DNA of 64,000 nucleotides, taken from NCBI GenBank assembly GCA_043228905.1, contig JBHGNT010000006.1, positions 17,732,001-17,796,000 of the forward strand, written 5' to 3'. Made by a program: the position numbers and the translations under genes. The stretch's first letter is position 1. Every line of letters starts with the position of its first letter. Below, in pieces: positions 7,364-46,652 of this stretch. Source of the DNA: Azolla caroliniana. Its lineage: Eukaryota; Plantae; Polypodiophyta. The notes under the pieces were generated by a model. It saw only the letters and a list, made by a program, of their open reading frames with translations, did no database searches and was not told the DNA's origin.

Positions 7364-7793
7364 TGTCATGAATCTGTGAACATTATGCTTCACCTGGACT
7401 TGAACCCAGCACATCGTATTACGAAATTCGAAGCCTAACTATAGTGAAATGATAAAGGCTACTTTTCATAGTGACTATTTTATCAAAGAAACTTCCAGAA
7501 CTTTCTAGAAATCTTCTGGAACATCCTAGAATATTCTAGGTCCATAACATTCTAGAACATTCTAGAAATCTCTAAGATATTCTAAAGAAACCTATAAATA
7601 GAGACAAATAGATCATATCAAATCAGTTCGAATCAACACCAATCTTCAGATTCAAGCCTACCTTGTATCCAACTCATCCTTGTACACATTCTATTCTAAT
7701 AAACCCACTCTCCTCTTATCAATCCATTCTCCTCTCCTCTTCTATTCTCTTATACCTTCCTTCAATCGTTCAATTTCTTGCTTTGTTTTGATA
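7364..7793 (+). repeat. Chromovirus family 'A' LTR (+ copy)
   Basis: Reverse complement of 12050-12484. TATA at ~7593 and a TTCTAGAA array. Confidence 0.85.
7488..7590 (+). promoter_or_regulatory. Heat-shock-element (nGAAn) array upstream of the LTR TATA box
   Basis: ttccagaactttctagaaatcttctggaacatcctagaatattctag..ttctagaacattctagaa, a ~10-bp periodic TTCnnGAA pattern directly before cctataaata. Confidence 0.7.
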
Positions 7794-9920
7794 GTTTGAT
7801 TCGAATAGTTTTATTCTTATTTGCCATATCAATTGCACCTTCTAGTGACACTCAAGGGAAGTCACAGGTCTACATTCCTAAAAAGTACAAAGAATATGTT
7901 GACGTCTTCGACAAAGTCAAAGCTAGTGTACTTCCACAACATCGGCCATACGATTGTCCCATTGATCTACACCCAAGAAAAGAACCACCATGGGGTCCAA
8001 TCTACAATCTCTCACCAATGGAGCTTGAGGTTCTTCGAGCATACATTGACGAGAATCTTGCAAGTGGGTTTATTCGACATTCAAAGTCTCCAGCTGGTGC
8101 TCCTACCTTTCTCTTGAAGAAAAAGGATGGCTCACTTCGTTCGGTGGCCTCATTTACAACAATTTGTTGAAGATTACATTCGCACATGTGACACATGTTG
8201 TCGAGCCAAAATGCCTAAGCATCATCCTTATGGGTTGTTACAACCATTGCCGACTCCGAGCAAGCCATGACAGTCAAGTTCCATGGATTTCATTATCGAT
8301 CTGCCACCTTCACAAGGTTTTGATGCGATTTTAACCGTAGTGGATCGATTTACCAAGATGACACATTTTTTGCCCTGCGTAAAGAGCATCAGTAGTCAAG
8401 AAACAACATATATCATTATGCGTGAAGTATTTCGCCATCATGGTCTTCCAAATGACATAATTAGTGATCGTGGTCCGCAATTTATCTCTCACTTTTGGAA
8501 GCACCTATGTAACGGGCTCCGAATCTCTTGCAACCTGTCTTCAGCATATCATGCCAAAACTGATGGCTAAACAAAGTGCACAAATCCAGAATGCTTATCT
8601 TTCAAATGAAATTTAATTGAAGAATATGGGTTTGGTCACTCATCTCGAATGACAAAGAAGGATTTAATGGATTGGGTGGAGTCTACTAACAAAGAGTTCA
8701 GTGCGAGTGCGACGCTCAACGAAATTAGCAAATATTTGATTGTCTGCTTGCACTTGACCAAACGCTTCTCAATTCCAACAAGGTGCTCCTATTTATCAAA
8801 TCAGTAGATGTGGCAGATCGAAGAGATCTTGGACTACTACTAGAAAATGATGAAGGCCTCATTTCTAATTGGGCTCCAGTGAAGAGAGCGTGTGGACGAG
8901 GTGATAAGCGCGTGAAAATTTTGTTAATGGCCTAGAGTAGGAGGTAGCCTCCATTCTCGATTCTAAGATTGTGCACAATAAGGTGTATTATCTAGTTGAT
9001 TGGCTAGGGTATACCCTGAGCCATGGCTCGGAGATCAACATCATGTCTCTTGACTTCTATCTAAAAGGTCGTTGGCCCATTAACACTAGGCATGGGTGGA
9101 AGATTCGATCGACAACAAAGAACAACTCTACTATAAACCTAAACGGTTGATTCCTTACGAGCACAAGTCACCGGATTCATCCTCCCCGGTCAAAGACTGC
9201 GGTGGTCCCGTTCAACTGACCTACCTGCGTGTATTTCCACAACATAAGATTTGGTGAACCACGTGGTCGTGGGTTCGGTTTCGATGGTGTATATTCGAAA
9301 CTCCGGAGTTACCCACAAAGCCTTGTGCAGAGGATCATTTGGAGCGGTTACGCAAGATATAGGCAGATTTATCTACTAATTTACAACAAGTTCAACAAAC
9401 ACACAACAATTATGTGGATTGACATCGTCTTCCATCCAGTTTTAACATTGGAGATCTAGTATGGCTATTACGACGAGACGTCAAGACTACTCGCCCATGC
9501 GATAAATTGGATTATCGGCGATTGGGTCCTTTCCGTATTATCAGAAAAATTAATGATGGCTCTTTTTGTCTCGATCTACCTCCGCAACTACAGATACATC
9601 AGGTATCTCATAGGTCTCTTCTAGAACCATATTAGGACAGCACTATCCGAGGTCGTATCAAAGCACCTCCACTTCCGATGTAACTTGAAGATGGACTTGA
9701 GGATGAGGTTGCCGCCATCCTTGATTCCAAGATTGTTCGCAACAAGCTCTACTATTTGGTTGATTGGCTAGGATGTAGCTCTAGCGTGCCTACTTGAGAA
9801 CCAATAGAGAATCTAACCAATGCTCGTGCTCTTCTTGAAGACTTCCATTGTCAATATACAGACAAACAAGGTCCTCAATCCAAAACGACTCGTAACACTG
9901 TCGTTTTAAAAGGGGGATAG
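7794..9920 (+). pseudogene. Mosaic of retroelement fragments (chromovirus RT start, integrase, chromodomain; E-type gag, protease, LTR end and PBS)
   Basis: Each 100-450 bp piece matches a longer copy elsewhere in the window (21.2-21.5 kb, 13.3-13.7 kb, 28.6-28.97 kb, 12.6-12.7 kb, 30.06-30.15 kb, 33.23-33.33 kb). Confidence 0.75.
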
Positions 9921-10318
9921 TGTCATGATATGCCAAGATTCGAACCAATGTCCTTATATTACATGGGTCGAGCCCTTGCTATTAGACTATATATTATAAT
10001 ACAAACGATATTATTTCCATTTATTATTTCAGTATAGAAAATTGATGTATATTTCCAGATTTCTTTGGAACATTCTAGAAAGTTCAGAGTACTCTTGAAA
10101 ACACTATAAAAGGTGGCATAAGGCATTAATTTGAACCAAATCGGTTCAATGCCAGTCTTAAGCCTCATAGTTATTCTTGTACTTACTGTTCATATATTAT
10201 AATATATCTTTTGTTATCATCATTCTCTCTCTCTCTCTCTCTCCTTCTCTCGTGAATTATACACCCTTTTCTCTCCCTTAGTACTAATTCCCTCTATGTC
10301 TTAGAACTATTCCTGACA
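9921..10318 (+). repeat. 3' LTR of a second chromovirus family ('D')
   Basis: Follows a chromodomain remnant (YYLVDWLG) and PPT aaaagggggatag. Termini tgtca...tgaca, TATA at ~10105. Confidence 0.7.
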
Positions 10319-10563
10319 CTTACAAGCACAAATCACCCGATTCATCGTCCCCGGTCAAAGACCATGTTGATCCCATTTAATCAGCCCGCAAGCGCGGATT
10401 TCCGGAACATAAGATTTGGTGAACCTAGCGTGAAGAATGGCAATGGAGGATGGTCGATACTTCAAGTGCTCAGGACTCCAATGATAGTCTAGCACAAGCA
10501 ATGGCGAAGATGATGGACCAAATGCTTCAAGCGAGAGACAACGTCGCGGGCCTTGATGTTGCC

Positions 10564-10985
10564 TATCAGAACAAAGCAAGAGATTGAACGATTGCAGGAA
10601 GGTATAAGAGAATAGAAGAAGAGAGGAGAATGGATTGATAAGAGAAGAGTGGGTTTATTAGAATAGAATGAGTACAAGGATGAATTGGATACAAGGTAGG
10701 CTTGGAGCTGAAGACTAGTGTTGATTCGAACTGATTTGATATGATCTATTTGTCTCTATTTATTCTATAGAATAGTTTAGAGATTTCTAGAATGTTCTAG
10801 AATGTTATGGACCTAGAATATTCTAGGATGTTCTAGAAGATTTCTAGAATATTCTAGTAAGTTCCAGAAGTTTCTCTGATACAATAATCACTATGAAAAG
10901 TAGCCTTTATCATTTCACGTTCTAATAGTTTACCTTAATGGTTAGGCTTTGAATTTCGTAATATGAAGTCTTGGGTTCAAGTTCA
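10564..10985 (-). repeat. Family A LTR (- copy, truncated)
   Basis: Matches 12050-12484. Left flank TTGCC equals the flank at 28459-28463. Confidence 0.8.
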
Positions 10986-10989
10986 TTAG

Positions 10990-12049
10990 CAAAATGTCCA
11001 CACGCTCTCTTCATTACCGCCCAAGTAGAAGTGAGGCCTTCATCATTTTCTAGTAGTAGTCCAAGATCTCTTCAATCTGTCACATCTACTGATTTGATAA
11101 ATAGGAGCACCTTGCTAGAATCGAAAATTGTTTAGTCAAGTGCAGGTAGACGACCAAATCTTTGCTCAAATTCATTGAGCGTCACACTCGCACTGAACTC
11201 TTTGTTAGTATACTCCACCCAATCCATTAAATCCGTCTTTGTCATTCGAGATGAGTGACCAAAGCATCCGGATGCTTTGATGGTAAATTTCATTTGAATA
11301 AGCATTCTGGATTGGCCTCTTGTAGCTCTACGACCTGGGTGTAAAGACTTGAAGTTACAATCCTCAAGACGCTTGCCACTTGTCTCACCATGGGAATACC
11401 CTTTTTCCGCATTCTTGTTTTGTAGGCTTCAATGTATTGTGTCACATCTTTACCATCAAAGCATCCGTTGTCGTCCATGATCCTATCGGTGGCAACATCA
11501 AGGCCTCCGATGTTGTCTCTCACTTGAAGCATTGCATCCATCATCTTCGCCATTGCTTGTGCTAGACTATCATTGGGGTCTCTAGCACTTGACTTAAATG
11601 TTGAGAAACAAGACACGCCACCAATAAGATAACTAGGTTTTTATTATTAATATCTTGATTCAGTAAATAACTTCCTTCCTTCCCCTTACTTTCTCTTTTG
11701 TCCTTTCTTTTATAGATACCCCCATGCATATGATGCATGTCAGGGTGTAAGTCATGCATAGAATGCATGAAATGCATGCAATACATGAAATGCATGCAAT
11801 ACATGAAATGCATGCAATGCATGATTGCAATTTGGCACTCATGCATCACATGTGATTAATGATAACCATCCCACTCACTCAAGCTCTCATTTATGAGAAT
11901 TTACATGTCAAAAGTACAATGATGAAAATAGACCTTAAAGAAACAACTTAGCCTAATTGTATGTCAATTGTCTCCTATGTTGGAGGTGTAAGCTTCAAAA
12001 CCCATGTGCTAATATATGAGTGTAACCATCACCCCTTTCATGCGTGTGT
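10990..12049 (-). pseudogene. Inverted E-type gag fragment plus the middle part of an E-type LTR
   Basis: 11290-11616 ORF (FDGKDVTQYIEAYK) matches the gag at 28.5 kb. 11590-12049 is the reverse complement of ~31700-32105. Confidence 0.75.
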
Positions 12050-13684
12050 TGTCAAAACAAAGCAAGAGATTGAACGATTGAAGGAAGGTATAAGAGAATA
12101 GAAGAAGAGCAAAGACTGGATTGACAAGAGAAGAGTGGGTTTATTAGAATAGAATGAGTACAAGGATGAGTTGGATACAAGGTAGGCTTGAATCTAAAGA
12201 CTGGTGTTGATTCGAACTGATTTGATATGATCTATTTGTCTCTATTTATAGGTTTCTTTAGAATAGCTTAGAGATTTCTAGAATGTTCTAGAATGTTATG
12301 GACCTAGAATATTCTAGGATGTTCCACAAGATTTCTAGAATGTTCTAGAAAGTTCCAGAAGTTTCTCTAATACAACTATCCTTTCACGTTCTAATAGGTT
12401 ACCTTAATGGTTAGGCTTCGAATTTCGTAATACGAATCCTGGGTTCAAGTCCAGGTGAAGCATAATGTTCCCAGATTCATGATACTATCCCTCCTCTTAA
12501 AACGACGAGTGGAAGGAGTTGTTAACAATGCAGGGCCGGGTTTGTTGGGATAGTGATGATGGAAGTTGTCGATAAGAGCTTGAGCATTACGAACATTATT
12601 GACAGGTTCCCATATGCGATCGCTCGGGGTATACCCTAGCCAATCAACTAGATAATACAACTTATTGTGCACAATCTTAGAATCGAGAATGGAGGCTACC
12701 TTGTACTCTAGCCATTAGCATGTTGGAGAGGAGGCGGCGGCGACACGACATGATTGGGAGTCGAGTTGGTGTGGCAAGGTTCCAAAACAAAGTTGTGAAA
12801 GACTGGATGAAGCCGCAAATTTGCTGGAAGATCAAGACGGAATTTTGCATCATTAATCCGCACCGTGATGACAAAAGGACCCAAGCATTTATAATCTAGC
12901 TTATCACATGGTCGGGTAGTCTTTATGTGACAACATAACAACCATATCCGATCACCAATCTTGAATGGAGACAGAAGATGATGTCGATCTACGTGGGTCT
13001 TATGTTGGGCTTGAGCTTTCTGAAGATGTGAAGATAACTTAGACCGAAGGTGTTGCAGTCAGTGGAGGTGTTGCTCCACACCAGGGTTTGGTGAGATCAC
13101 TAGAATGTCTAAGGTACACCATCGAGGATGGTTGCTAGTATAGGCATAGAAAGGTGTGACCTTGGTAGAAGAGTGTATGATGTTATTGTACGCAAACTCT
13201 GCAAGATACAATATATGACTCCAATCATCTTGTTGATAACTGATGAAACATCGAAGATACTGTTGAAGTGTTTGATTTATGTGCTCTGTTTGGCCATCAG
13301 TTTCGGCATGATATGCTGAAGAGAGTTTGCAAGAGATTTGGAGCCTGTTACATAGGTGCTTCCAAAAGTGAGAGATAAATTGCGGACCACGATCACTAAT
13401 TATGTCGTTTGGAAGACCATGATGGCGAAATACTTCACGCATAATGATATCTGTTGTTTCTTAACTACATATGCTCTTTATATAGGGCAAAAAATGTGTC
13501 ATCTTAGTAAATCGATCCACTACAATTAAAATAGCATCAAAACCTTGTGAAGGTGGCAGATCTATAATGAAATCCATAGAAATTGACTTGCATGGCTTGC
13601 TCGGAATCGGCAATGGTTGTAACCACCCATAAGGATGATGCTTAGGCATTTTGGCTCGACAACATGTGTCACATGTGCGAACGT

Positions 13685-16600
13685 TGTGGTACTGTGAATT
13701 ACACACTATGTGAAATATGTAAAACACCATATCCGATTTAGAGTACGTATAATAAATAAATAAATAAAATAAAATATTAAAAATTTTTATTACATGCATA
13801 GCACAACATTCGAACCCTATACCTCCACGTAGACAAACCCCAGCCTTATCACTATACTAGCATACTATGAGTCTTAAAAGTTATACTCAACTTTATCCCA
13901 TGTAAATATTCTAGATATGCATGGTACAAAAAGTTATTCATGCATACACACTCGAGTTAAAAGAAAAGATGGGATAGAAAGCTAATCATGCACATGGAGT
14001 GTGCATGAAAACTAAAGTTAGGAAAAGCAAGATGTTTGCATGTGATAAACTTAGACTCTTCCAACACTATATAAGGAAGAGAGAAAGATGTATAGGGGTT
14101 GTTGATTATTTTACAAGGGTTGATTAATATAACATAATCGTGGGATCCACGAATTTGCTAACTATTTTTCTCTCTTAATCTGAGCACTCACTAATACACT
14201 ATACTTGTGGGATTCATGAGTTTTTCATATCTTTCTTTGTTACAATATATTTCATATTCTTAATTGCCTTAGAATTTTCTTTCCTCCTAGTCCAAAACCC
14301 CAGCGGTTCCCACCCGACTCATGTAACGATCCGGCACTGAAAGGCACGACACAAGTGGTGAACCCGACATGAAAACGGGTGGCAAGGAGATGGAGAATCA
14401 ACAAGAGGCTAACAACATGATGATGATGTTCGAGCGGATGCTTCAAGAACAACGTGCGATGTCAGAGATAGCGGCGGCAGTAGAGCGGCTCGTGCAACGA
14501 ATCGAGCAATTCAACGAAAAGGACGTATCACGCTATCTTCGGGACTACAAGGCAGAAATGATACGGTGTGGGATTTTGGAAGGACTGCAAGTGACATCCT
14601 TCAACTGGGTAGCTGCTGACGAGCTTCAAGCAAGTATCCACGGGCTACGACAACAAAATCTAACGTGGGAAGCATTTGAAGAGGCGCTAAAAGTCCACGT
14701 TCGCTATCGAGGACTCCTCCAAGGCAAAGCGGAGAGGATTCGAGGATTGGGTGGAAACGCCGGACAAGGGAATGAAGGTCCTCAATTTGTTTTCGGCATT
14801 CGAAAGTCGGTTCGGGAGGTTGTCTACGAGAGATCAAGCTATCCTTGCACCGAACAAAGTTATCATGTTCTTACGAGCCGTAGACGTCCGGGACCGGAAG
14901 GATCTTGGAGTGCGTCTAGAGGACACGACTACCGAGAGTGGCCTCACCGAAACATGGGAAAGTGTGCGGGATATCGTCGCACAATACACAAAGAGGGGGC
15001 AATGGCTTGCCAATGAAGAAAAGAGGGTTTCGGAACCGATTCCGAAACCGAGATCCGGATCGGAAGACCATCACCGTGGGCTCGGGAGACTACGACTGAG
15101 AAGGGAGTCGACACAACCACGGTGGAGCAATTGCTGAAGGAGATGGAGAATCTGAAAATCGTGATGGTGAAGAAGACTGAAGACCGTCCCACAAGTTCCA
15201 AGTACATGGACCGTCGATGCATATGGTGCGATAGCACTGAACATGATCGGAGAGATTGTGACAAACACAAGGAGGCGTTACAACGGGATCTCGCACGAAT
15301 TCGGAGCCAAAGCGGTGAGAAATCCATCCAGTTCCTAACTATGCTGGCAAATCATGAAAGGAACAAGAGAGAGCTCTTGTCCCAAACAAGGATGGATTTT
15401 TAGAGCGGACTATTGTGGAGTGGGGAAGTGATAGTCTGAGAAGCCCTGATACCCCACATAGGAAGAAAACTCTCCGAGAAAAACAAGTACGAATCGGTCT
15501 GGATGGGGCATCAACGGACACGGCCGTAACGGGAGGAATGAAGAAAGAATACCAAAAAGTGGAGGATAAGTTATGGTTGGCATCAATAATAAAAGAAGAC
15601 GAAGAAATCGTGGGAATAGTTGAAGAAATGTTCTATGGGAGCACGCTACAACGGCTTGAAGAGCTTGTGGAGGATAAAAGCCAAGGAGACCGGGTAGTCC
15701 CAGTGGAATCGGTCGAGATGTACGAGATCATTGCGAAAATGGGGCTGGATGCGTTCCGCAAAGAAGAAGCAATGGTAAGTACGAAATACAAGACCGTGGA
15801 GAAGAAAGTTAAACCGGTTGCGGGACCGTTACCCGCCGATAGCGAGCAAAAGAGGAAAGAAGTCTTGGGAGATCCGACACTTTGGAAGTCAGTGGATATT
15901 GGACATGCCTTCACAGATGAGACCAAGAAGAAACTTCAGATCGGTGGAGGTGGTCTCCTTTTACAAAATGAAGAAGAACGATTTCGTGGGATGTTGGAAC
16001 AACATGGGAAAGCATTTGCATTCACATCGAAGGAGATAGGGTGCGTTGATCCGAAGTTAGTGGAGCCGATGGTGATCTTCATGATTGACCATGTGTCATG
16101 GAACCTGAAGCCGATTCCGGTGCCACGGGCGCATATTCCGAAAATCATCGACTTGCTCAAGGAGAAGGTGGCGATGGGGATTCTAGAGCCATCAAACGCT
16201 TCGTACTCAAATCGATGGTTTACGGTTCCGAAGAAGAATGGGTCGCTCCGATTTATCCAAGACTTGCAACCGGTGAACAAGGTCACGATCCGGAACTCTA
16301 GATAGTGGACGAATTTGCGGAAGCATTTGCCGGTCGTGCGATATACTCCATCGGAGACATATACTCAGGGTATGACCAATTCCAACTAGTCGTGGAGATT
16401 CGAGACATCACTACCATGCAGACACCGATATGATTAGTTCGGATGTGTACGCTACCACAAGGCGCGACGAACTCGGTCGCACATATGATGAATGCAATGA
16501 ACAAGGTACTTCGAGACTGCATTCCAAAGATAACGATGTCGTTCCTAGATGACATTCTGATGAAAGGATGCACGGTGGAAGAAAAAGATGACACTAAGGA

Positions 16601-19600
16601 TGATCGGGGATGCCGACAGTTCGTAGTCAACAATATTCGCAATTGCGAGAAAGTGCTATGAAAGTTAGAAGATATGCTCCTAACACTTTCCAGAGAGAAA
16701 TTGGCATTCGGGCAAGAAGAGATATTGGTAGTCGGACATCTATGTGGGCCCTACGGCCGAAGACCATCACCGACCAAGATCTATGCGATTCAAGCTATGA
16801 AAGAAGTATGTGAGTCACAATCCGAAGTCCAAAGGTTTCTTGGAATATGTGCATTCTATCACATATGGATTCTACACTATGCACATATTGCGGACCCACT
16901 CTATCACTTGTTGCAGAAGGGTAAGAAGTTTGAATGGAAACCGGAGCATACCAAAGCCGTGAAGAAGCTCAAGAAATCACTACGGAGGGCAAAAGCACTA
17001 AAGAAGTCGAATTATGACCAACCGATCATAGTAACGGTTCACACAAGTCCAACCGGAATCGGATGGGTCATCAATCAAGCCGACTCGGATGGTTGACGAT
17101 ATCCAATCCGATTCGGAGCAAAGGTTCTCAATGAAAGGCAACACGGATATGCACAAGTCAAAAGAGAATTATGGGGAGTCGTGTCGGCAATCAAATCAGA
17201 TCGAGATTATTTGATCGGAGCCGAAGTAGTGATCAAAATGGATTGTCTTCCGATACTCGGGATCATGCAGTGTTGCACGATATCGGATGTGGCTATGCTA
17301 CGGTGGATTGCATATGTTAAGTGACTTAATCCGGAGGTACGATACATCTCCGGAAAAGAACGTGGTAGCGGATATGCTATCAAGGGCGCGGTTCGGAGAT
17401 GACATAACCGAATCCGATAATGAAGAAGTTTTCGAAGACTACTTTGCTTCGGAGCACATATGCCGGGTGAACGTAATCCGAGAATTCTGGGAAGAAGAAT
17501 ACGAGGAAGAAAGCTTGCTGATCGGGAAAGTGCTACAAGAAATCGAGGAATCATCGGACAATAAAGAGAAGAGAGCCGAGATCCGAAGTAAGAAGCGGCA
17601 AGTCCGAAAGTTCTTCTTGAAAAATGGATTAATATGGAGGGAACCGAAAAGACGAGATGGCATACCACTTCGGGTAGTCGGGACGAAAGAGCAACGAAAC
17701 CGGATAATTTCCATGTTTCACAAATCCGATTGGGCTGGAGATCGGGGGACATGGGCAACATTTTTGAAGATGAAACAAAAAATATGGGTGGGGGAACATG
17801 TACAAAGATATAGCAGAGTTCACGGGAAGCTGCGAGAAGTGTCAAATCTACTCCGGAGTTCGACACCGAGATGAGTTACATCTGACATTCTCACCGACAA
17901 TCAACTTCAAATGGATGGTCGATATTGCAGCCATGCCAACCGGGATTAACAAAAGAAGTATTTGGTGTTAGCTCGGGAAGATCTCACAAACCAAGTAGAA
18001 GGCCGGGCGCTATGAAGGAAAACGTGTTTTGTAGTATGCCAATTTCTTTTGGAGGAGGTGTTTTGCAGGTACGGGTGCGTAGGACAAGTGATTGCGGATC
18101 GGAGAGAACTCGACTCTGATAAAGCTAAGGAATTCTTCACCAACCATGGAGTTCAGTTAACACTAACAACGGCATACAATCCGGAGGCCAACGAGAAAAT
18201 CTAACGAGGACATAGTCTGATCGTCAAAGCACTTGCCAAAGCATGCGACGGAAGGATGAAGGATTGGCCGTAAATGCTTCCTTATGCACTATGGGTGGAT
18301 CGGACGATGCATAACTCCATAACCGGTTACATGCCAGCAAAACTCATGACCAGACAAGCACTGGTAATGGCAACGGAAACCGCGATCGCGACATGGACAG
18401 TGCTACCGTGGAAGGAAGAGATGAGCTAGGAAGGACTACTTGCAGTCCGGATACGAAAACTAAAGGGAAGACCGGAAGACATAACAGAAGCAATACGCCG
18501 ACAACAAGAAGCGCGATTCCGGAATAAAAGCCGGTTCGACACAAAGCACCGACTACGACCGCGGAAGATTGAAGAAGGAGATTGGGTGATTGTCTACGAC
18601 AGTAGTTTGGATCATCAACATGCAACGATGTGGAAGTTCGTGAAAATGTGGTTCGGGCCATACCAGGTTCGGAATGTTTTCGACAACGGAACTTACCGAC
18701 TACGCGAGTTGGATGGAACGATACTACGAGTACCTATAGCCGGGAAACGGGTGAAGATATTCAAAAAGCGGACTGATGAAGAACCCTACGTGATCCTAGA
18801 TAAGACCAACAAGAAGGAGCAATTGGACGAAGATCGCGGTGATGCGGAAAGCGAAGAAAGTGACTTAAGCGGAGAATCGGAGGAAGCTTCGGATGAAGGT
18901 GAACAACAAGCATCGGGGACTTTAGCACATATCGGAGGATGTGCAGGTTCAGAGGGGGCGAGTGTCGTAGTGTGAATTACACACTATGTGAAATATGTAA
19001 AACACTATATCCGATTTAGAGTACGTATAATAAATAAATAAATAAAGTAAAATATTAAAAATATTTATTACGTGCATAGGGCAGGATTCGAACCCTATAC
19101 CTCCACGTAGACAAACCCCAGCCTTACCACTATACTAGCATACTATGAATCTTAAAAGTTATACTAAACTTTATTCCATGTAAATATTCTAGATATGCAT
19201 GGTACAAAAAGTTATTCATGCATACACACTCGAGTTAAAAGAAAAGATGGGATAGAAAGTTAATCATGCACATGGAGTGTGCATGAAAACTAAAGTTAGG
19301 AAAAGTAAGATGCTTGCATGTGATAAACTTAGCCTCTTCCAACACTATCTAAGGAAGAGAGAAAGATGTATAGGGGTTGTTGATTATTTTACAAGGGTTG
19401 ATTAATATAATATAATCGTGGGATCCACGAATTTGCTAACTATTTTTCTCTCTTAATCTGAGTACTCACTAATACACTATACTTGTGGGATTCACGAGTT
19501 TTTCATATCTTTCTTTCTTACAATATATTTCATATTCTTAATTGCCTTAGAATTTTCTTTCCTCCTAGTCCAAAACCCCAACGGTTCCCACCCGACTCAC

Positions 19601-19629
19601 GCAATGATCCGGTCCCGAAAGGCACAACA
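13685..19629 (+). mobile_element. tRNA-Trp-primed Ty3/gypsy element 'C', protease region deleted, inserted in the A integrase
   Basis: 667-bp LTRs at 13685-14351 and 18963-19629. TSD ACGT. PBS tggtgaacccgac at ~14356. PPT agagggggcgag. Gag, RT (FLDDIL), RNase H and integrase remnants with stops. Confidence 0.92.
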
Positions 19630-21173
19630 ACGTAATATTCAACAAATTGTTGTAAATGAGGCCACCAAAATGATCGCTTGACTAGCTCCACGGTCTTGGC
19701 AATAGCAAAGTGTCCGGCCATATGGGCATCAAGACAATGCTCCAACACTCGAAGGCATGGTGATCCATCAAGGACATAAAGGAGATTCTTGTAGAAAAGT
19801 AAGTTATCTTCCCACGTGAACTTTTTATAGCGTCGAGATGTCCCTGGCAATGCATGATTTGGATCAAGGTGGGCGAAGACATCCTTAGCAAAATCATCTG
19901 AGTGAAGATGTTGTTGAATAGTATCAAGAAGACTTGACTCCAGTGGGGTGGCACAAACCGTGATTGCTTGTGGTTTTGCTGGATCAAGCAAAACTTGCTT
20001 TTGATTGTCGAAAGTTGGATGTCTAGGGCGAAGTGCCAAATATGAGGGTCGAGATAGAGCATCTACTTGCCAGTGTTTTTTCCTTGGGCGAAAAATGATC
20101 TTGAAATCAAAATGAGTTAAATATTGTGCCCATCGAGCTTGTCGCCTAGTTAGCATTCGAGCCATTTGAAAATATGTAAGATTTTTGTGGTCACTATAAA
20201 TGATTATTTGATGAGGTGAACCTTCCAAAAAATGTTGCAATTGCACAAAAGAGTCAACCACAACTAGTAACTCTTTGGCATGCACCTCGCAGGTAATCTC
20301 CACAACATTAAATTTTCTTGAGTGAAACACGACTAGATGCAACTGCCCATCTTCACCTGGTTGTGCTAGGATGCTCCCCAATGCAAAGTTGGATGCATCT
20401 GCCTCAATGGTAAATGACTTTTGTGGATCAACATGAGCTAAGACATGAGCTGATATGAATGCCTCTTTCAATAGATTATAGGCTTTGTCCGCTTCGGGAG
20501 TCCAAACAAATGCTTGATTTTTCTTGGTGAGTTCAGTGAGCGGCAATACAATCTTCAAATACTTCCATATGAATTTGCGGTATAAGTTGGCAAAGCCAAG
20601 GAAACACTGGACATCGTGGACGGAACTTGGAGTATGCCATTCCAAAATTGTTTGACTTTTCGTTGGATCCATGAAGATACCTTTGGATGAAATGGTATAA
20701 CCCAAGAACTCAACTTCTTTGCAATCAAAACCGCACTTCTCCAGTTTGGCATAAAGACCATACTCTCTTAAGTGTTGGAGTACCTTCCGCACATGTATAT
20801 CATGCTCCGCTTGTGTTCTAGAGTAAATCAATAGATCATCTAAATAGATGATGAGAAAGATATCTAGAAAATCTCGGAAAATGTCATTTTCCATATGTTG
20901 AAACACGGCGGGAGCATTTGTGAGCCCAAAAGGCATTACTGTATACTCGAAATGGCCATACCAAGTGCGAAATGCAGTCCTCCACTCATCTCCTGTTCGA
21001 ATACAGACAAGATTATATGCAGCCCTTAGATCAATTTTGGTAAAATGCTTTGCCCCACCAATGAGCTCTAAAAGACTGGAATTTAAAGGTACAACATACC
21101 TATTTCTTATTGTGACTTTATTTAATCCCCGATAATCCACGACCAAACGAAGTGAGCCATCCTTTTTCTTCAC
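19630..21173 (-). pseudogene. Family A pol: RT, RNase H and start of integrase
   Basis: 547-aa ORF KKKDGSLRLVVDYRGLN..YLDDLLIYS..EADASNFALG, cut by element C. Confidence 0.9.
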
Positions 21174-22856
21174 GAAAAAGCTAGGAGCACCAGCTGGAGA
21201 CTTTGAATGTCGAATAAACCCACTTGCAAGATTCTCGTTGATCTATGCTCAAAGAACCTCAAGCTCCGTTGGTGACAGATTGTAGATCGGACCCTATGGT
21301 GGCTCTTTTCCTCCATGTAGATCAATGGGACAATCGTACGGCCGATGCTTTGGAAGTACACTAGCTTTGACTTTGTCGAAGACATCAGCATATTCTTGGT
21401 ACTTTTTAGGAATGTAGACATGTGACTTCCCTTGAGTTTCACTAGAAGGTGCAATTGATATGGGAAATAAGAATAAATCTTCTTTTGCTCCTTCTTGGCA
21501 TAATTGTTGTACAGTAATGGTTGAAATCTGATGAAGAGGAACAACGTGTTTAGTAGAGGTTGAATTGGCAACACTATGTTTTTCAAGAGGAGGATCCTGG
21601 GTTCAACCCTTAACTACTATGTTTCCTTTTGAAGGGTACTGTAGTATCGTCTCGAACTCCTCGAATATCTTTCCAGAAGCTATGGGACGTCCATCAATCA
21701 CTACTATAGAAACTGGGCAAGGAAGTTTATGCAAGGGTATTTGATGTTTTCGGCCAAAATCTCTATCCATGAAACAAGAATTGGCGCCGGTATCTAAGAG
21801 AGCTGGGACATGAAGTTGACAACTTGGTGTCCTAACTTGTACTTGGGCAGAAAAAACTCTACTAACATGCTTGGAAGAGATGGAACCCGCACTAGGTTGT
21901 ACAGATCTACGACTGTCCAACCAAATGGCTCCGATTTTGGCTGGACTTATTCATTTTACTCCTCTTCTAATTGTCTTAGGACCTCAAATGTATTGGATAG
22001 AGTTGGATTACTAGAACTTTAGTTGGCACAGTTTCAACGATGCTAGACTCATTTCTATTATCATAGTTAATGTGATGTACGTGACGTCTCGGTCTGTGCA
22101 GGCAGTGAATGGCAATATGTCCTGGACCTCCACAATATAAGCATAGTCGATTTGCTTGACGACATTGTTTCTCTTCATCCAATAACGGTCTTTGTCGCCG
22201 GGTCATGTCAATCTCCATCGGTGTCGGGCTAACCCACCTCGAGATGAATCCGTCAGATAATGTGTGGGATGCATCTGGATCACCAACCGCACTTGATTTA
22301 TAAAACCCCGAAAATGTGCTCTCGAACCATCGAATTCAGCTCGGAGGCTGACTTTGGGCTCCTTAAGAACTCCTTGACCATCAATTTTTAGTTGTTGTAA
22401 AGCAACAATTTCCGACTCTAATTGTTGAACCCTTCGTGTAAACTCGCCGTGTATTTGTTGCTTCTCTACAGAAACCTTATGTAGATCTTGAAGCAGTCAT
22501 TGATTCTCTAGCTCTAGTGATGCAAACTTTCTTTTGAGATTGTCCATTTCTGCACAAGGGCGACATATTCCTATGAGTTGCTAGCATCCATGGTCACTGA
22601 CTAGTGTTTGTGGAAGAGGTAATGGAGAAGAAGTTCGAATCAAACAGTCAGAACAAAGCAAGAGATTGAACGATTGAAGGATGGTATAAGAGAATCAAAG
22701 AAGAGAGGCTAATGGATTGATAAGAGAAGAGTGGATTTATTAGAACAAAATGAGTACGAGGATGAGTTGGATACAAGGTAGGCTTGGAGTTGAAGACTGG
22801 TGTTGATTCCAACTGATTTGATATGACCTAGTTGTCTCTATTTATAGGTTTGTATA

Positions 22857-31626: not shown

Positions 31627-33331
31627 TGTCGTGAAATTTTTTGGCAACGGTGTGAAAATCACGTGGAAAGGAGAAAAGCAAGAAGGTGCAATGTGCACAT
31701 ACATGAAAGGGGTGATGGTTACACTCGTATATTAGCACGTTACCATGCACATGGGTTTTGAATCTTACACCTCCAACATAGGAGACAATTGACATACCAT
31801 TAGACTAAGCTGTTTCTTTAAGGTCTATTTTCATCGTTGTACTTTGGACATGTAAATTCTCATACATAAGAGTTTGAATGAGTGGCATAGTTATCATGCA
31901 TCACATGCAATGCATGAGCGCCAAATGGAAATTATATGCATGGCTTACACCCTAACATGCATCATATGCATGGCGGCATCTATAAAAGAAAGGAAGGAAG
32001 AGAAAGGAAGGGGAAGGTAGGAAGCTATATAGTGAATCAAGATATTAATAATAAAAACCTAGTTATCTTATTGCTGACATGTTTTGTTTCTCAACATTGA
32101 AGTCAAGGGTTCAAACCCAGAATTGGAATTTCCGTTCGTCTCTATCTACCTATCTATCTTCAATATTTTCTCATTTGTGCTAGTAAAACATTGAGTCCTT
32201 CCGGTGCGGACACCAACGTTCCTGCTTTATTATCTTGAACGATCCTCCATCACCACTTGCGGATAGAGGCCCGGTGATTGTCTGCACATGTGTGACGTGC
32301 ACATTGCGACATTTGGCACATGTGTTACGTGCTTCTCGACATCTTTGTGGTGCGATAAATACTTTCTCTCTCTCTCTCTCTCTACAAGATCACTTCCCAT
32401 TAAGATCAAGGCCATGGAAAGGGTTGTTGAATACATGCTTAAGGTTCAAAAAAGTCTCTCACATCGACTTCTTAGAATTGCATGGGAAGCAAGCAAAAAG
32501 ATCCAAAAGACGCATAAAAGCAAATTTTTGTGTTCCAGTTGGATGCAATATATAGAAAAATGGTTTGGTAGATGGAATGCGAGACACTTGCTTCATGATG
32601 CATCATTAGATTCCTTTGTAAATGAGGCCTTATTGCAACGTCAATGTGTCAGAACATTGGACAAATGGGCAGGCTCACGCTTCACACATTATACTACACA
32701 TGTTGCACCTAACTACAAAACCATATTCTTTGTGGAATGGGGAAATTGTACACATTGATACATGTTAGAGCCCATACCGTTATCTGCCATTCGAACCATT
32801 GCTTCCATGCGACTTAGCTCACATGCATTGCGATGTGAGACAGGGCATTGGGGCACAAGTGATGAGAGTGGTCGGCTATGCACACTTTGCCCTAAACAAG
32901 TTCGTGAGTCTGAGTATCACACTTTGATACAATGTTGTGCCGTTGATCATATTCGACCATGCTTTCCACATCTCTTCAACCGAGCCCAATTCTTGCATGA
33001 ATTCCTCTCACAACCACAATGTGCACTCTCGATTGCAACATTCATTGGTAAAGTTCTTGAGCATCGAGAGTCACTACTCACTAATACACGTATCACGTGA
33101 AATGTAATATTTTTGGTCTCATAGGTCATATTTGACCTCCGAAGACGATAATATAATCTATCTATCTATCTCTCATCCAACTCGCGCAAGCATCTTCGAC
33201 AACAAATAATGACTCGACAAAAAACCTAAACGGCCGATTCCATACAAGCACAAGTCACCCGATTCATCCTCCCCGGTCAAAGACCCCGGTGGTCCCGTTC
33301 AACTGACCAGCTGACACGGATTTCCGTGATA
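31627..33331 (+). repeat. 3' LTR of element E, containing a LINE insertion
   Basis: Starts tgtcgtgaa after the PPT. The end segment matches 9135-9244 and 10321-10409. Confidence 0.75.
32383..33172 (+). mobile_element. 5'-truncated non-LTR retrotransposon (RTE/L2-like 3' end)
   Basis: C-terminal RLSSHALRCETGHW..RLCTLC..ESEYHTLIQC, a (CTAT)n tail, and insertion within a (CT)n tract. Confidence 0.75.
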
Positions 33332-41352: not shown

Positions 41353-43163
41353 GTAAACGTTTTAGATAATCAATTAAAGACCACTACAACATCATTGACT
41401 TAATGAAAAAAATTACATATAAACTAAACACATGATTAGATGGGAGAAGAGAGAATAGAAAGAAAAATTATGGAAAGAGTTACCGAAGTTCTTTGTTGAT
41501 CGTTTTCTAGATCAAGGCCAACCGCACAACAATCGATCAGCATCAATCAAAAGACAAATGAAAAACAAAGAAACATTAGTACAAAAATCTGATACCAAAT
41601 ATTATAGATCTCGGTACTAAAGTAAGCTTAAGATAAGGATAAAGAAATGAAAGATAGAAAGGAGAAAGAGAAAGAAGGGTGCCGATCCACCCAACCACCC
41701 CCGAGCGAAGGGATCGAGACGGACTCGAGCCTCGATCGGCGTCCCATACCACCGTCGTGGCGTCGAGTCGTACCTGGTGCTGGCGCGCTCGCTACAAGAG
41801 TTGACCCACCACAAGAGCAGAGTCTCGATGTAGTCAAAAGATGATCCAATGAGGGTAGCTAGGCCTCTTATTTATAGCGATACCCAAGGCCCCCAGGCAA
41901 GTTCACACTTGACCTAATAGGTTGTCTCAATCCTGAGGATTAAAAGTAATCCTCCCCTTCTTTACACTCTCGTTTAACCCTCACACTTATCCACGTGTAT
42001 AGAATACTACGGTAAATTCTTACCACGGGATATTATATGGTCATGCCCGTAACACATAGCTTCTCCTATCCTGCTTTTCGATGGGAAGCGAGCTCCCACT
42101 CCTCTATCCATGTTCTTGTCTTTTCTTTCCCGAAAACGAGAAGCCTTGTCTCTATCTTGTTCGCATGCTTTTCTGTCGACTACAAAGGAGTCTCAACCCT
42201 TGCGCTATGATACCATGTAAAAGAATGAGTGCGAAAGAGTGTGCAAAAGACATGGAGTACACAATAGATTAGTTCGAAAACTCTACAGTTAGGTAAACAT
42301 AGAGAATGGATACACAGTGAGTGAGAGAGAGACAGAGGGAGTAGACAACAACACTACAATTTCAAATAATGAACATTCTATACATACATTGTGCCCAATG
42401 AGCACTTTTTATACAAGCCCTAACAAGCGGGCTGACACAAGTACCATCAGTACTTGAATGTTCATAAATGAGCCTGACACTAATTCTACCTATAATATTC
42501 CTATTCACTATAAGAGGAATGTAGGCCCCTAACAGTCTTTTCAGATTCCCTCCAACTCGTCTCACCGCTCTCAGCTCTCAGCTTCTTCAGCCGATTCGGC
42601 CCATGTTGAGGTTGTCTATCAACATAGAGCCTCACAATGAGCGACGACCGGAGGACGATCGGTCCCGGCCAAACATCTGTTTCCAACAAGAGGATCGGTA
42701 TGGATCAGATAGAGGATTTTGGTGTGAGGACACCCGAAGGAGAGAGGATTGCCCACGGGACAGATATGATCGGGATTATTTTCTAGAGTGTGATAGAAAA
42801 ACAGGAATGGAACAAAGATATTCGGACCAGCAGGGGTACCACAATCAACATCGGAATTATAGTCCCCGACGTGGCAACCATAATCGGCGAAACAAGCACG
42901 ACGATCTACATCAGGATTACAAACGAGCTCCGGATGCCAGAAAATCTTTGCCGGAGGGCAATGTTGTACAATTAGAACAAAGGAAAATGGAGGAAATCAC
43001 ACAGACAGTTCTTGAAATGCAACCAGTAGTGGCAGAGAACGGAGAATCGAGTGGATCTAGGAAACTGTACTACTATTTTTGTTGGCAAGAAGGACATTAT
43101 AGCAACCAATGTAGCAAAAGAAAAACAACCGGCAGTAAATATGGTAAATTCAAAGGTGGACGG

Positions 43164-44436
43164 TGTCGTGAAGATCCGTCACTAGGCACGGATTGCGAGG
43201 CAGAACCGCCGGGTTCTGGACCGGAAGGATCAAAGTTCGCACCGAGCTTAGCAAGAAAGTATTTAGGATAGATTGAGAGAGAGAAAGAGATTAAGATTAA
43301 ATGCTTGACTTAGATTGAGAAAGATTGATATGGCCAAGAGAGAGATATTGAGATTAAGATTTTAACTCTTGATTTAAGAAACAAGATATATCATCAATGA
43401 ATTTTCTTCTCATTAATTTCTTAGTTCATACATGGATCCATAATACATTTTCATCCATCCTTTTATAGATGCCCCCATGCATATGATGCATGTTTGCCAT
43501 TTGGCGCTCGTGTATTACATGTGGTGCATGATAGCCATGTCACTCATTTTAGCTCTCATGCATAAGAATTTACATGTAAAAGTACGATGATAGAAATATA
43601 ATTTCAACTAAATATCTTGGCTTAGTGGTAAGGCAATTGACTACTAACTTGGAGGTGCAAGGTTCGAATCCTTACTTGCCCTCCTTGTATATTTGTATAT
43701 TTATTTATCTAGTCGCCGGATGTCGTCGCCTCGCCGGCGCCGGATGCCGCCGATTACCGGTGGCTGCCACGTCGCCGGCACCGGATGCCGCCAATCATAG
43801 GTGTCGTCGCCTCGCCTCGCCGGTTGCCGCCGGATGTCGGTTCCACCGGCTCCGTCGGATCACCAGTTGCCGGTGTGCCACCGTCACTTTGCCGGCTGCC
43901 GCAGGATCACCGGCTCCATCGCCAATCCAGTTTTGGTTGGTCAAAACCTTTACGAGTAGCTAGGCCACCTCCACTCGTAGTTCAAGTTACCTTGAAAGCT
44001 CTATGCTTCACACATACACACAAAGAAAATAGCTTTTGCTCTACCTTATATATGATGAGAGTCGTATTTGTCCTAGCTACCTCCACTCTTAGTTCAAGTT
44101 ACCTTGAAATCTCTATGCTTCACACATAGACACAAAGAAAATAGCTTTTTCTCTACCTTATATATGATGAGAGCCGTATTTGTCGTGCCTATATCAGATA
44201 TCTCATAGTTTTCTCTTTTCCTTTCACAAACTTTATACCCTCATATCTTGACATCTAATTGTCTGTTTCTCGTGTAATAAAGTGCATTCGAAATCTCTTG
44301 AAGACCTCCATCATTCTATACTTATATATTAAACTTATTTTAAATGTTATCTTCACTATTATTGTTTTATGTGATTCATAGTCGATTTTGTACGTTTTAT
44401 GTGATTTTCACACCATTGCCGAAAATCTTCACGACA
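43164..44436 (-). repeat. Trp-family LTR ('B'), copy 1 (solo-like)
   Basis: Termini tgtcgtgaag...cttcacgaca, flanks ACGG/CCGG, near-identical to 45377-46652. Confidence 0.88.
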
Positions 44437-44671
44437 CCGGTGTGCAGCAGGTCACCACCCAAGCGAAAGGGAAGACCATGGAGTGGGAAGCTCAGGAAGC
44501 TATAAGGAAGACAACCCAATAATGGGTAGAAAAAGTGAATCATCAAAATGCGGAGCAAGCATTACGAGAGCTGAGCAAACAAAGGACGGGGTTCAACATC
44601 AAATCAGAGGAAGAATCATGCACGGAGAATCCTGCATGGTAGGAACTAGAAAATTGTTAGATAACAATACC

Positions 44672-46652
44672 ATCAAGCCATCGACGATGTCTATCGATCT
44701 TGTTGCATGCTTGCTTCACCACAACCCAATCCGCCACAAGCTTGTTCGCTTGGGTATCATCTTCGAGGAGAGTCCCCAACTCTCTTCTATCCTTCATGTC
44801 CACAACCTTTAAGAAGTATAAAGTCTTGTCCTCTTCAAGTAGCACTTGATCCGTGTTGGGGAGACGGCCAAACATCTGGTCGAATTCGTCGTACACGCTC
44901 GAGGCGCTCATCTTTTTATTCTTATTCTCTATCCACTTCATCAGGGCATGTCCAGTCATCCTTGTTGAGTCTTCAGTCGCGAACTCTGCTAATATCGTTT
45001 TCTTGAACTCGGAGTATGTTTTCTTACCTTCTTGAGGTTCGATGATGCATCTTTCAACTTTGTTGGCGACAACTCTCTTGAAGCTTGCGATTTGACATGC
45101 TTCAAACACGTCCCTCTGATTCATCTCCCTTCTATATGCATCAAGGAACTTCGTAACGTTCCTTCCAACAAATTGGCCCTTGAGCTCTACGACACGATCG
45201 ACAGCCTTCTCCACGCTCGCGTCGTTGTCCCGAGATCTCATCATTTGCTCGACGATTAGCATCATCCTTTCGAGCTCTCCCGCTTGATTGCTTGAGGATG
45301 CCATCTCTAAGTATCGGTTGATCCTCGACTTGATCCTTCCTACTGCCTCTTTCACGTCGGGTTCACCACTTAATTATGTCGTGAAGATCTGTCACTAGGC
45401 GTGGATCGCGAGGCGGAACCGCTGGGTTCTGGACCGGAAGGATCAAAGTTCGCACCAAGCTTAGTGAGAAAGTATTTAGGATAGATTAAGAGAGAGAAAG
45501 AGATTAAGATTAAACGCTTGACTTAGATTGAGAAAGATTGATATGGCCAAGAGAGAGATATTGAGATTAAGATTTTAACTCTTGATTTAAGAAACAAGAT
45601 ATATCATCAATGAATTTTCTTCTCATTAATTTCTTAGTTCATACATGGATCCATAATACATTTTCATCCATCCTTTTATAGATGCCCCCATGCATATGAT
45701 GCATGTTTGCCATTTGGCATTCATGTATTACATGTGGTGCATGATAACCATGTCACTCATTTTAGCTCTCATGCATAAGAATTTACATGTAAAGTACGAT
45801 GATAGAAACATAATTTTTACTAAATATCTTGGCTTAGTGGTAAGGCAATTGACTCCTAACTTGGAAGTGCAAGGTTCAAATCCTTACTTTCCCTCCTTGT
45901 ATATTTATATATTTATTTATCTAGTCGCCGGATGTCGTCACCTCGCCGGCGCCGGATGTCGCCGGTTACCGGTGGCTGCCACATCGCCGGCACCGGATGC
46001 CGCCAGTTACTCGTGGATGTCGTCGCCTCGCCTCGCCGGTTGCCGCCGGATGTCGGTTCCACCGGCTCCGTCGGATCACCGGTTGTCGGTGTGCCACCGT
46101 CGCTTTGCCGGCTGCCGCAGGATCACCGGCTCCATCGCCAATCCAGTTTTGGTTGGTCAAAACCTTTACGAGTAGCTAGGCCACCTCCACTCGTAGTTCA
46201 AGTTACCTTGAAATCTCTATGCTTCACACATAGACACAAAGAAAATAGCTTTTGCTCTACCTTATGTATGATGAGAGCCGTATTTGTCCTAGCTACCTCC
46301 ACTCTTAGTTCAAGTTACCTTGAAATCTCTATGCTTCACACATTGACACAAAGAAAATAGCTTTTGCTCTACCTTATATATGATGAGAGCTGTATTTGTC
46401 GTGCCTATATGAGATATCTCACAGTTTTCTCTTTTCCTTTCACAAACTTTATACCCTCATATCTTGACATCTAGTTGTCCGTTTCTCGTGTAATAAAGTG
46501 CATTCGAAAGCTCTTGAAGACCTCCATCATTTTGTACTTAGATATTAAAATTATTTAAAATGTTATCTTGACTATTATTGTTTTATGTGATTCATACTCG
46601 ATTTTGTACGTTTTATGTGATTTTCAAACCATTGCCGAAAATCTTCACGACG
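44672..46652 (-). mobile_element. Family B 5' LTR (45377-46652), tRNA-Trp PBS and truncated gag
   Basis: ttcacgtcgggttcacca at 45351-45368 matches the 3' end of plant tRNA-Trp. Gag ORF 44657-45355. Confidence 0.88.

What the first reader, a model, noticed from the sequence alone, without database searches (positions are those of the whole stretch)
7384..45895. Five different LTR types carry an antisense tRNA-like Pol III module upstream of their TATA box
Seen, always opposite to element transcription and ~115-210 bp upstream of TATA. A: accttaatggttagg..cctgggttcaagtccagg (12400-12460; also ~7384-7440, 10930-10985, 28370-28435). D: tagtctaatagcaagg..ggttcgaatc (9930-9990, -). C: tagtatagtggtaagg..gggttcgaatcc (19074-19139 and 13795-13861, -). 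E: tagtctaatggta..gattcaaaacc (31745-31812, -; 11946-12010). B: tggcttagtggtaagg..aaggttcgaatcctt (43618-43682, 45830-45893). A- and B-box spacing is tRNA-like and D/T arms partly pair, but the acceptor stems are lost. Established: A/B boxes recruit TFIIIC, which can act as a chromatin barrier, and Cassandra LTRs carry 5S Pol III promoters. Inference: both chromovirus and non-chromovirus lineages captured tRNA-derived cassettes, as an insulator against silencing or a divergent Pol III transcript source.
Basis: partly seen in the sequence, partly recalled or inferred. Interest (0 to 1): 0.8.

Follow-up and report, generated by a model that had tools for sequence, protein, structure and literature searches.

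The report
Backwards tRNA promoter boxes in LTRs
Two groups of protein-coding jumping genes in a moss-like plant keep the two promoter boxes of a tRNA gene, facing backwards, in their terminal repeats while the rest of the tRNA has decayed, which suggests the boxes are likely kept as a landing site for a host transcription factor that would help shield the element's own promoter.

Summary
All 11 sites are present, each is antisense to its element, and the A-to-B gap is 31-32 nt in the ten with an intact A box (7 strict hits against 0.35 in shuffles). 'Five types' reduces to two Gypsy clades: A/D (Tcn1-like chromoviruses) and B/C/E (Phygy-like). Relatives fetched by a chromodomain motif alone carry the cassette antisense in 56 of 72 LTR starts and sense in 0 of 72; a sister clade lacks it (0 of 18). 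Across families the A box, B box, an 'AGGT' just before the B box and the spacing persist; spacer, flanks, cloverleaf pairing and T-run terminator do not. That fits a TFIIIC DNA site, not a tRNA-like RNA. No binding or expression data exist. Against: one multi-copy family lost the A box, 29-41% of C-type depth carries C56T, and one possible sense-strand cassette exists. Closest known: Helenus TRIMs, which are non-autonomous and sense-oriented. This scan noted similar cassettes before in other genomes (rays, fungi, diatom).

The parts
12400..12452 (+). Type A cassette (A box, 31 nt, B box) in the 3' LTR 12050-12484 of a minus-strand Tcn1-like chromovirus; B box ends 32 nt from the LTR's outer end
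7396..7449 (-). Type A cassette with A box damaged by a deletion, in LTR 7364-7793 (+); LTR followed by a self-priming-type PBS at 7794-7806
10931..10984 (+). Type A cassette in a minus-strand LTR (about 10564-10990) whose outer end is lost
28373..28426 (+). Type A cassette in the 5' LTR (28458 to 22647, minus strand), which is split by a copia insertion 22856-28206
9936..9989 (-). Type D cassette in the 3' LTR 9921-10318 (+) of a second Tcn1-like family, behind chromodomain and PPT; B box ends 15 nt from the LTR's outer end
13806..13859 (-). Type C cassette (decayed copy) in the 5' LTR 13685-14351 of a Phygy-like element
19084..19137 (-). Type C cassette (0 mismatches) in the 3' LTR 18963-19629; element flanked by a 4-bp NCGN duplication
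31754..31807 (-). Type E cassette in the 3' LTR 31627-32341 (+) of a deleted Phygy-like element
11949..12002 (+). Type E cassette (decayed) in a broken E-type LTR (11588-12049 minus strand; its first 78 nt lie at 7286-7363 plus strand)
43618..43671 (+). Type B cassette (0 mismatches) in LTR 43164-44436 (minus strand); 765 nt from the outer end because U3 is longer than in E
45830..45883 (+). Type B cassette (0 mismatches) in the 5' LTR 45377 to about 46650 (minus strand), followed by PBS and a gag fragment
32064..32118 (+). Possible second cassette, sense to the E element and about 85 nt downstream of its TATA box; strong B block, weak A box; one copy only
19530..21242 (-). RT-RNase H-integrase zinc finger frame of the type A element (shows the carriers are pol-coding)
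14352..18962 (+). Interrupted gag-pol of the type C element; named RT relatives are from liverworts and a fern

Best explanation
The LTRs of two Gypsy clades carry, antisense and upstream of their TATA box, an A box and B box at tRNA spacing that outlast the sequence around them, and these likely act as a DNA binding site for host TFIIIC that would help keep the element's own Pol II promoter usable. Shown: presence, orientation, position, and conservation limited to the box bases, the AGGT at tRNA positions 44-47 and the 32-33 nt gap. Inferred: origin from a tRNA gene or tRNA-derived SINE, probably once per clade; purifying selection acting through the copies that transpose; TFIIIC binding. 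Further inferred, and not separable with these data: whether bound TFIIIC works as a barrier to silent chromatin, blocks read-through from neighbours, or loads TFIIIB on the side facing the TATA box and keeps that region open. Facing outward, the cassette cannot make the genomic RNA and sends no Pol III through the Pol II start.
For: Relatives were fetched by a chromodomain motif, not by the cassette. Antisense cassette (at most 3 mismatches) in 56 of 72 LTR starts and 21 of 34 cluster representatives; sense 0 of 72; shuffles 1 of 340; gap 32-33 nt in 18 of 21. Leave-cluster-out matrix: 69 of 89 antisense, 0 of 89 sense, 0 of 18 in the sister clade, 0 of 10 distant IMG/VR elements. Carriers span 49% minimum, 66% median protein identity and every main branch of one clade. 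Pairwise identity among 22 representatives: A box 0.67, AGGT 0.87, B box 0.77, against spacer 0.39, upstream 0.37, downstream 0.36; AGGT was not in the search pattern, and a motif-blind alignment of 25 LTRs peaks at the same places. Yeast TFIIIC contacts DNA just upstream of the B box, changes at +44 to +47 alter activity, and 32 bp is the commonest A/B distance (PMC11724288, passages). No cloverleaf and no conserved terminator. Multi-copy contigs keep it in 36 of 39 cases, low-coverage ones in 33 of 50; 13 of 16 high-coverage carriers have a stop-free integrase tail. Phygy side: the best B-C LTR match is 26 nt at the B box; a run labelled as another organism lays 3153 contigs on 19052-19139 and next to nothing on 19140-19230; sister subfamilies replace the spacer but keep the A box in register (14 contigs; 52 contigs). 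TFIIIC-dependent barrier activity of tRNA genes and ETC sites is established in yeast and mammals (PMC12409998, passages; PMC4228148, abstract).
Against: No binding, chromatin or expression data. Within 7 clusters the boxes vary about as much as the spacer (0.19 against 0.21; rest of LTR 0.27; coding 0.16). L056 (71x coverage; it lacks a recognisable A box and keeps two B-box-like remnants) and L044 (11x) score negative, and related chromoviruses without any cassette exist, so it is dispensable. At the C cassette the key base C56 reads T in 41% (X1) and 29% (X12) of contig depth while G57 changes are not listed at the 10% cut-off; CpG decay is symmetric elsewhere (42 against 36; 327 against 352), so this is unexplained. 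TFIIIC tolerates gaps up to 93 bp, so the tight 32-33 nt is stricter than the factor needs. The 22 representatives were chosen for having the motif, which inflates A- and B-box identity. All cassette-positive loci have contig names from one accession series, so host breadth is unknown. The barrier evidence comes from yeast and animals, not plants.
Confidence: 0.55

Rival explanations
1. The cassette matters through an RNA: Pol III transcribes outward from it, making a short antisense RNA over the U3 end and PPT (3' LTR) or into flanking DNA (5' LTR) that tunes silencing or reverse transcription.
For: The A box is conserved as well as the B box, and the A box contributes little to TFIIIC affinity, which points to TFIIIB loading and perhaps initiation. 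The upstream zone is A/T-rich.
Against: T4 within 120 nt behind the B box in 10 of 22 representatives, inside the LTR in 4 of 22; no conserved fold; no conserved upstream motif; no cassette-specific strand bias of mutations (C>T over G>A about 1.6-1.8 in every zone).
Confidence: 0.15
2. The cassette works on the genomic RNA, where it reads as the complement of a tRNA: it docks a host tRNA near the PPT to bridge the RNA ends or aid strand transfer, as proposed for a tRNA-like stretch in HIV-1 U3 and for the split Ty3 primer site (both recalled).
For: Antisense orientation in 11 of 11 window sites and 56 of 56 positive loci is what pairing needs; in Tcn1-like elements the B box lies 10-62 nt (median 30) from the PPT-side LTR end; exact tRNA spacing is kept.
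Against: Type A has an 11-nt PBS complementary to its own LTR 34 nt after TATA, and Tcn1 elements are mostly self-priming (PMC6317226 supplement), so there is no primer tRNA to dock. Stem and anticodon positions vary freely and variation falls on the degenerate box positions, which pairing to a given tRNA would not allow. In type B the cassette lies 765 nt from the LTR end. I could not confirm the HIV case in a text.
Confidence: 0.12
3. A neutral relic: a tRNA or SINE piece was captured once per clade and is decaying without selection; its apparent conservation reflects shared descent and my selection of matches.
For: Within-family variation is not lower in the boxes; losses in L056, L044, L086; frequent C56T in C-type contigs.
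Against: Spacer and flanks have fallen to background identity (0.36-0.39) while boxes 32-33 nt apart have not, also in the motif-blind alignment and at the AGGT that was not searched for; multi-copy families keep it more often than single decayed copies (35 of 37 against 28 of 37 with an LTR start).
Confidence: 0.1
4. The cassette steers integration: TFIIIC or TFIIIB on the cDNA end or on resident LTRs guides new insertions, by analogy with Ty3 targeting of Pol III start sites.
For: Ty3-type targeting of Pol III genes is known (search listing only); in Tcn1-like elements the B box sits close to the att end; the window is a nest of insertions into LTRs.
Against: The two nested insertions into cassette-bearing LTRs here lie 47 nt behind a B box (12050) and 166 nt before an A box (28207), not at a predicted Pol III start; only two events were examined.
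Confidence: 0.05

Closest known systems
Helenus (TRIMp3), Kojima 2024, PMC10886601 (parts 1-4 of 6 of the main text read; passages; one supplement passage)
   Same: tRNA-derived sequence in both LTRs; conservation centred on boxes A and B; no functional tRNA.
   Different: Helenus elements are non-coding, 311-1263 bp, and in the four LTR consensus sequences I saw the tRNA part reads in the given strand with a T run behind it; for the Selaginella family the internal part fixes that strand as sense. The paper argues that autonomous partners must use Pol II promoters and are unlikely to share such LTR sequence. Here the carriers encode gag-pol, keep a TATA box, and the cassette is antisense without a conserved T run. 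The paper does say that 'not a few' Repbase LTRs resemble part of a tRNA and analysed only TRIMs, so undescribed autonomous cases may sit in Repbase.
Cassandra and Ajax TRIMs (PMC10886601; PMC10946416 passages)
   Same: Pol III internal promoter captured in an LTR and maintained.
   Different: 5S-type promoter, non-autonomous; Cassandra uses it to transcribe the element itself.
tRNA genes and ETC sites as TFIIIC-dependent chromatin barriers (PMC12409998 passages; PMC4228148 abstract)
   Same: A/B-box or extended B-box DNA next to a Pol II promoter, acting without a useful RNA product.
   Different: Shown in yeast and mammals at host loci; ETC sites are B-box only; not tested here or, in what I found, in a plant LTR.
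Tcn1 chromoviruses and Phygy non-chromoviruses (Neumann 2019, PMC6317226, passages and supplement MOESM5; Novikova 2010, PMC2864245, passages)
   Same: Host clades: chromodomain, self-priming PBS and 5-bp TSD (A, D); 4-bp NCGN TSD and no chromodomain (B, C, E).
   Different: The passages I saw describe no tRNA-like LTR cassette.

Membership tests
Helenus / TRIMp3 | tRNA-derived sequence with A and B boxes in both LTRs | tested here: met
   C and B carry it in both LTR copies; A in four LTRs
Helenus / TRIMp3 | Non-autonomous, short (about 0.3-1.3 kb), no coding capacity | tested here: not met
   A, C, D, E carry gag-pol parts; 13 of 16 high-coverage carriers have a stop-free integrase tail
Helenus / TRIMp3 | Pol III promoter oriented so that it can transcribe the element | tested here: not met
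   Antisense in 11 of 11 window sites and 56 of 72 loci, sense in 0 of 72; one possible sense copy at 32064-32118
Functional tRNA gene | Cloverleaf with paired acceptor, D, anticodon and T stems | tested here: not met
   47.1% paired against 46.7% shuffled; acceptor 34%, anticodon 39%; ARAGORN 0; Rfam 15.5 bits against cut-off 29
Type 2 Pol III promoter (TFIIIC site) | A box and B box consensus at tRNA spacing | tested here: met
   spacing compared with PMC11724288
Type 2 Pol III promoter (TFIIIC site) | TFIIIC binding and/or Pol III initiation | not testable with these tools
   No RNA holder listed; only DNA contigs could be laid
Copy-specific SINE insertion | Polymorphic insertion with own TSD, body and tail | tested here: not met
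   Same place in all carriers; flanks at background identity, no shared tail
Tcn1 chromovirus (types A, D) | Chromodomain at the integrase end | tested here: met
   Matches the chromodomain end of P0014 and P0016, which carry PF00385
Tcn1 chromovirus (types A, D) | Self-priming PBS and 5-bp TSD | tested here: met
   Type A only: 11-nt complement of its own LTR; 5-bp flanks match across rearranged copies, one pair with a mismatch. No 5' end of D is in the window.
Tcn1 chromovirus (types A, D) | Placement in the Tcn1 clade of an RT/RH/INT tree with REXdb references | not testable with these tools
   Reference FASTA too large to read
Phygy (types B, C, E) | 4-bp TSD of pattern NCGN, no chromodomain | tested here: met
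   C has an exact NCGN duplication; B and the broken E LTR have NCGN flanks; no chromodomain hit in the C integrase tail
Phygy (types B, C, E) | tRNA-Trp PBS | tested here: inconclusive
   B and C share a tRNA-type PBS; it was not compared with a host tRNA set
Phygy (types B, C, E) | Placement in the Phygy clade with REXdb references | not testable with these tools
   named RT relatives are Riccia and Adiantum at 57-64%

The most novel reading that the evidence does not exclude
Autonomous LTR retrotransposons of two distant Gypsy clades in bryophytes independently built an outward-facing TFIIIC/TFIIIB site into U3 and depend on it as a portable insulator that protects their Pol II promoter from host silencing; some LTRs may even be bracketed by two outward-facing sites.
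Probability: 0.35. Interest if true: 0.82.

Novelty: new variant of a known kind. Interest (0 to 1): 0.63.

Why it matters
Known Pol III promoters in LTRs belong to tiny non-coding elements that use them to make their own RNA, and the Helenus paper expects autonomous elements not to carry them. Here pol-coding elements of two clades keep the boxes backwards across dozens of families. If TFIIIC binds them, a host general transcription factor has been co-opted in cis by abundant plant retrotransposons, each insertion or solo LTR would deliver a TFIIIC site, and the question whether TFIIIC acts as a chromatin barrier in plants becomes testable with a point mutation in one LTR, with cassette-free sister clades as natural controls.

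Tried and rejected
No whole genome is held, so no genome-wide copy analysis. ARAGORN and window-wide Rfam found no tRNA. Viral-contig scans for LTR-junction patterns found 0 matches; protein queries there gave no confirmed relatives or 10 distant elements at 34-40% identity without a cassette. No RNA holder listed; this says nothing on expression. The single metagenome scan went to the Tcn1-like clade, so the Phygy side rests on window copies and laid contigs. The first laying showed only 40 of 392 difference rows and could not give a per-site profile. One search used too strict an LTR-start rule and a faulty group test; it was superseded. Rejected: tRNA-like fold (the D-stem register of the 32-nt class is one column off in that alignment, so its 58% is approximate); conserved terminator; a Pol III mutation footprint; strand-biased CpG decay as the cause of C56T; a shared anticodon-loop word between type C and a real tRNA in L075, which is 4 nt out of register; hit 11345-11398 (score 14.8, within shuffle range). 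The source tRNA isotype could not be determined. A look-up of earlier findings by the C cassette sequence returned nothing. Not-in-print claim rests on searches (listings only, except papers named as read); PMC7466625 has 0 occurrences of 'tRNA'. Also seen without bearing: PMC13570524, PMC3286476, PMC13578239, PMC6088434 (passages), PMC8136502 (abstract). Two REXdb supplements could not be read and may bear on clade names; subscription papers and Repbase reports were not searchable.


Full report
Setting. The window is a nest of LTR retrotransposons with a LINE and other repeats. No genome is held. Named relatives of the type C reverse transcriptase come from the liverwort Riccia and a fern at 57-64% identity, with unnamed metagenome proteins up to 90%; together with Tcn1- and Phygy-type features this points to a bryophyte, probably a moss (inference).

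Observation. All 11 sites exist. A matrix trained on outside relatives alone recovers 11 of 11. With PPT, PBS and reading frames as guides, all 11 are antisense and upstream of the TATA box where one is found (114-233 nt). They are not tRNA genes. Counting from the boxes, the geometry is that of an intron-less tRNA, including AGGT at positions 44-47.

Two clades, not five. A and D start alike after a PPT, end in a chromodomain and share 45-57% protein identity in the integrase tail. A has a PBS complementary over 11 nt to its own LTR 34 nt after TATA, the self-priming pattern that Neumann et al. report for 83% of Tcn1 elements. B and E LTRs are 72-77% alike, B and C share a PBS, their gag and RT pieces are related, and their flanks fit the 4-bp NCGN rule of Phygy. 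Clade names rest on these features, not on a tree with references. A copia LTR and a third chromovirus LTR in the window have no cassette.

Independent test. I scanned metagenome contigs with a 10-codon chromodomain motif that knows nothing of the LTR: 123 loci returned of about 140 estimated. Of these, 21 form a sister group by motif and 102 the main group; 72 of the 102 have a recognisable PPT-LTR start with at least 130 nt behind it, and 30 were dropped (24 without a detected start, 6 too short). In the first 150 nt, 56 of 72 have an antisense cassette with at most 3 mismatches, 0 of 72 a sense one; by 80% clusters 21 of 34, 0 of 34, and 1 of 340 shuffles; the gap is 32-33 nt in 18 of 21. 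A leave-cluster-out matrix scores 69 of 89 main loci with at least 300 nt, 0 of 89 on the sense strand, 0 of 18 sister loci and 0 of 10 distant viral-collection elements. On a 44-row tree of the integrase tail and chromodomain, carriers fill one clade (27 rows, minimum identity 49%, median 66%) with scattered losses; the sister group and the window's third chromovirus lie outside. Multi-copy contigs (10x or more) carry it in 36 of 39 cases, low-coverage ones in 33 of 50; 13 of 16 high-coverage carriers have a stop-free frame.

What is conserved. Among 22 representatives (chosen for the motif, so box values are inflated) pairwise identity is 0.67 in the A box, 0.87 in AGGT, 0.77 in the B box, and 0.36-0.39 in spacer and both flanks. 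AGGT was not in the search pattern and is present at 20, 19, 21 and 22 of 22. A motif-blind alignment of 25 LTRs shows 0.71-0.74 column agreement over the boxes against 0.44-0.54 in the neighbouring windows. On 27 sequences the cloverleaf pairs 47.1% of cells against 46.7% shuffled, and no consensus fold is predicted. A T4 run follows inside the LTR in 4 of 22. Yeast TFIIIC contacts bases just upstream of the B box, positions +44 to +47 affect activity, and 32 bp is the commonest gap. The pattern is therefore that of a protein-binding DNA site.

Phygy side. The best match between the B and C LTRs is 26 nt at the B box. In a run labelled as another organism, 3153 contigs lie on 19052-19139 and next to nothing on 19140-19230 (19020-19055 was skipped as repeat); listed pieces span the B-side flank and the cassette, so they are LTR relatives rather than tRNA genes. 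Loose ends show sister subfamilies with a replaced spacer and the A box in register. This is thinner evidence than for the Tcn1-like clade.

Results against. Within 7 clusters, boxes vary at 0.19 alleles per site, spacer 0.21, other LTR 0.27, coding 0.16, which fits decay after insertion but gives no copy-level support. L056 (71x) lacks a recognisable A box, and L044 and L086 are damaged. C56 is T in 41% and 29% of depth in two runs at the C cassette with no matching G57 change listed, though it is C in 11 of 11 window sites and 66 of 69 positive loci (the latter partly by selection); CpG decay is otherwise symmetric. The gap is tighter than TFIIIC requires. A possible sense cassette lies at 32064-32118; the second E copy is broken before its B box and B has lost C56 at the matching spot. 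The carriers' contig names come from one accession series.

Mechanism. Most likely (0.55) the cassette binds TFIIIC and benefits the 5' LTR's Pol II promoter, by barrier action, read-through block or an open region on the TATA side; these are not separable here, and the precedent is from yeast and mammals. The outward orientation keeps Pol III away from the Pol II start and rules out a Cassandra-like role. Capture could be by SINE insertion, as Kojima proposes, or by reverse transcriptase copying into a tRNA, which would give this orientation by itself (inference). Rivals: functional antisense RNA (0.15), tRNA docking on the genomic RNA (0.12), neutral relic (0.10), integration steering (0.05).

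Comparison and novelty. Helenus has tRNA-derived LTRs but is non-coding and, in the sequences seen, sense with a T run. This finding fails two Helenus membership features and resembles it in origin only. My searches showed no report of this cassette in Tcn1 or Phygy LTRs; Kojima notes that other Repbase LTRs resemble tRNA. Earlier scan notes describe related cassettes in other genomes, including a self-priming LTR family of rays read there as a passenger (not checked). Verdict: real, conserved, a new variant of a known kind, function inferred. Interest 0.63.

Noticed in passing
window 32064-32118 (+): Second A/B-box-like cassette on the sense strand of the type E LTR, downstream of TATA; with the antisense one it would bracket the promoter. 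Single intact copy.
   Followed up: partly
window 7626-7636 and 7794-7806; 22634-22646: Type A PBS is complementary to the LTR's own predicted transcript start (self-priming); that start sequence itself resembles a B box.
   Followed up: partly
window 7286-12484 and 22647-28966: Four type A LTRs have swapped 5-bp flanks, and an E-type LTR is split between 7286-7363 (+) and 11588-12049 (-): an inversion, probably by recombination between two A elements.
   Followed up: partly
window 43164-46887: Two type B LTRs are each followed by the same 247 bp of target DNA, with only a gag fragment between them: a tandem duplication or unequal recombination. B's U3 holds a GC-rich block and a 112-bp tandem pair absent from E.
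   Followed up: no
window 19090 and 19107: Laid contigs of two runs show C-to-T on the cassette strand at two CpG sites (C56 included) with no matching change on the other strand; unexplained.
   Followed up: partly
L056, LTR start: High-coverage family with a tandem pair of B-box-like remnants and no A box: possible B-box-only (ETC-like) state or loss.
   Followed up: partly
window 35043-42054: A young chromovirus (LTRs 98% alike, 5-bp TSD, long open frames) without the cassette; a natural negative control.
   Followed up: partly
window 22856-28206: Very young copia element (LTRs 99.5% alike) inserted in a type A LTR between TATA and the cassette.
   Followed up: no
window 1448-2400: Fragmented gene-like frames with no Pfam hit at the window's left end, near possible DNA-transposon sequence.
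   Followed up: no
window 56389-61614: Minus-strand LINE remnant with endonuclease and RT domains.
   Followed up: no
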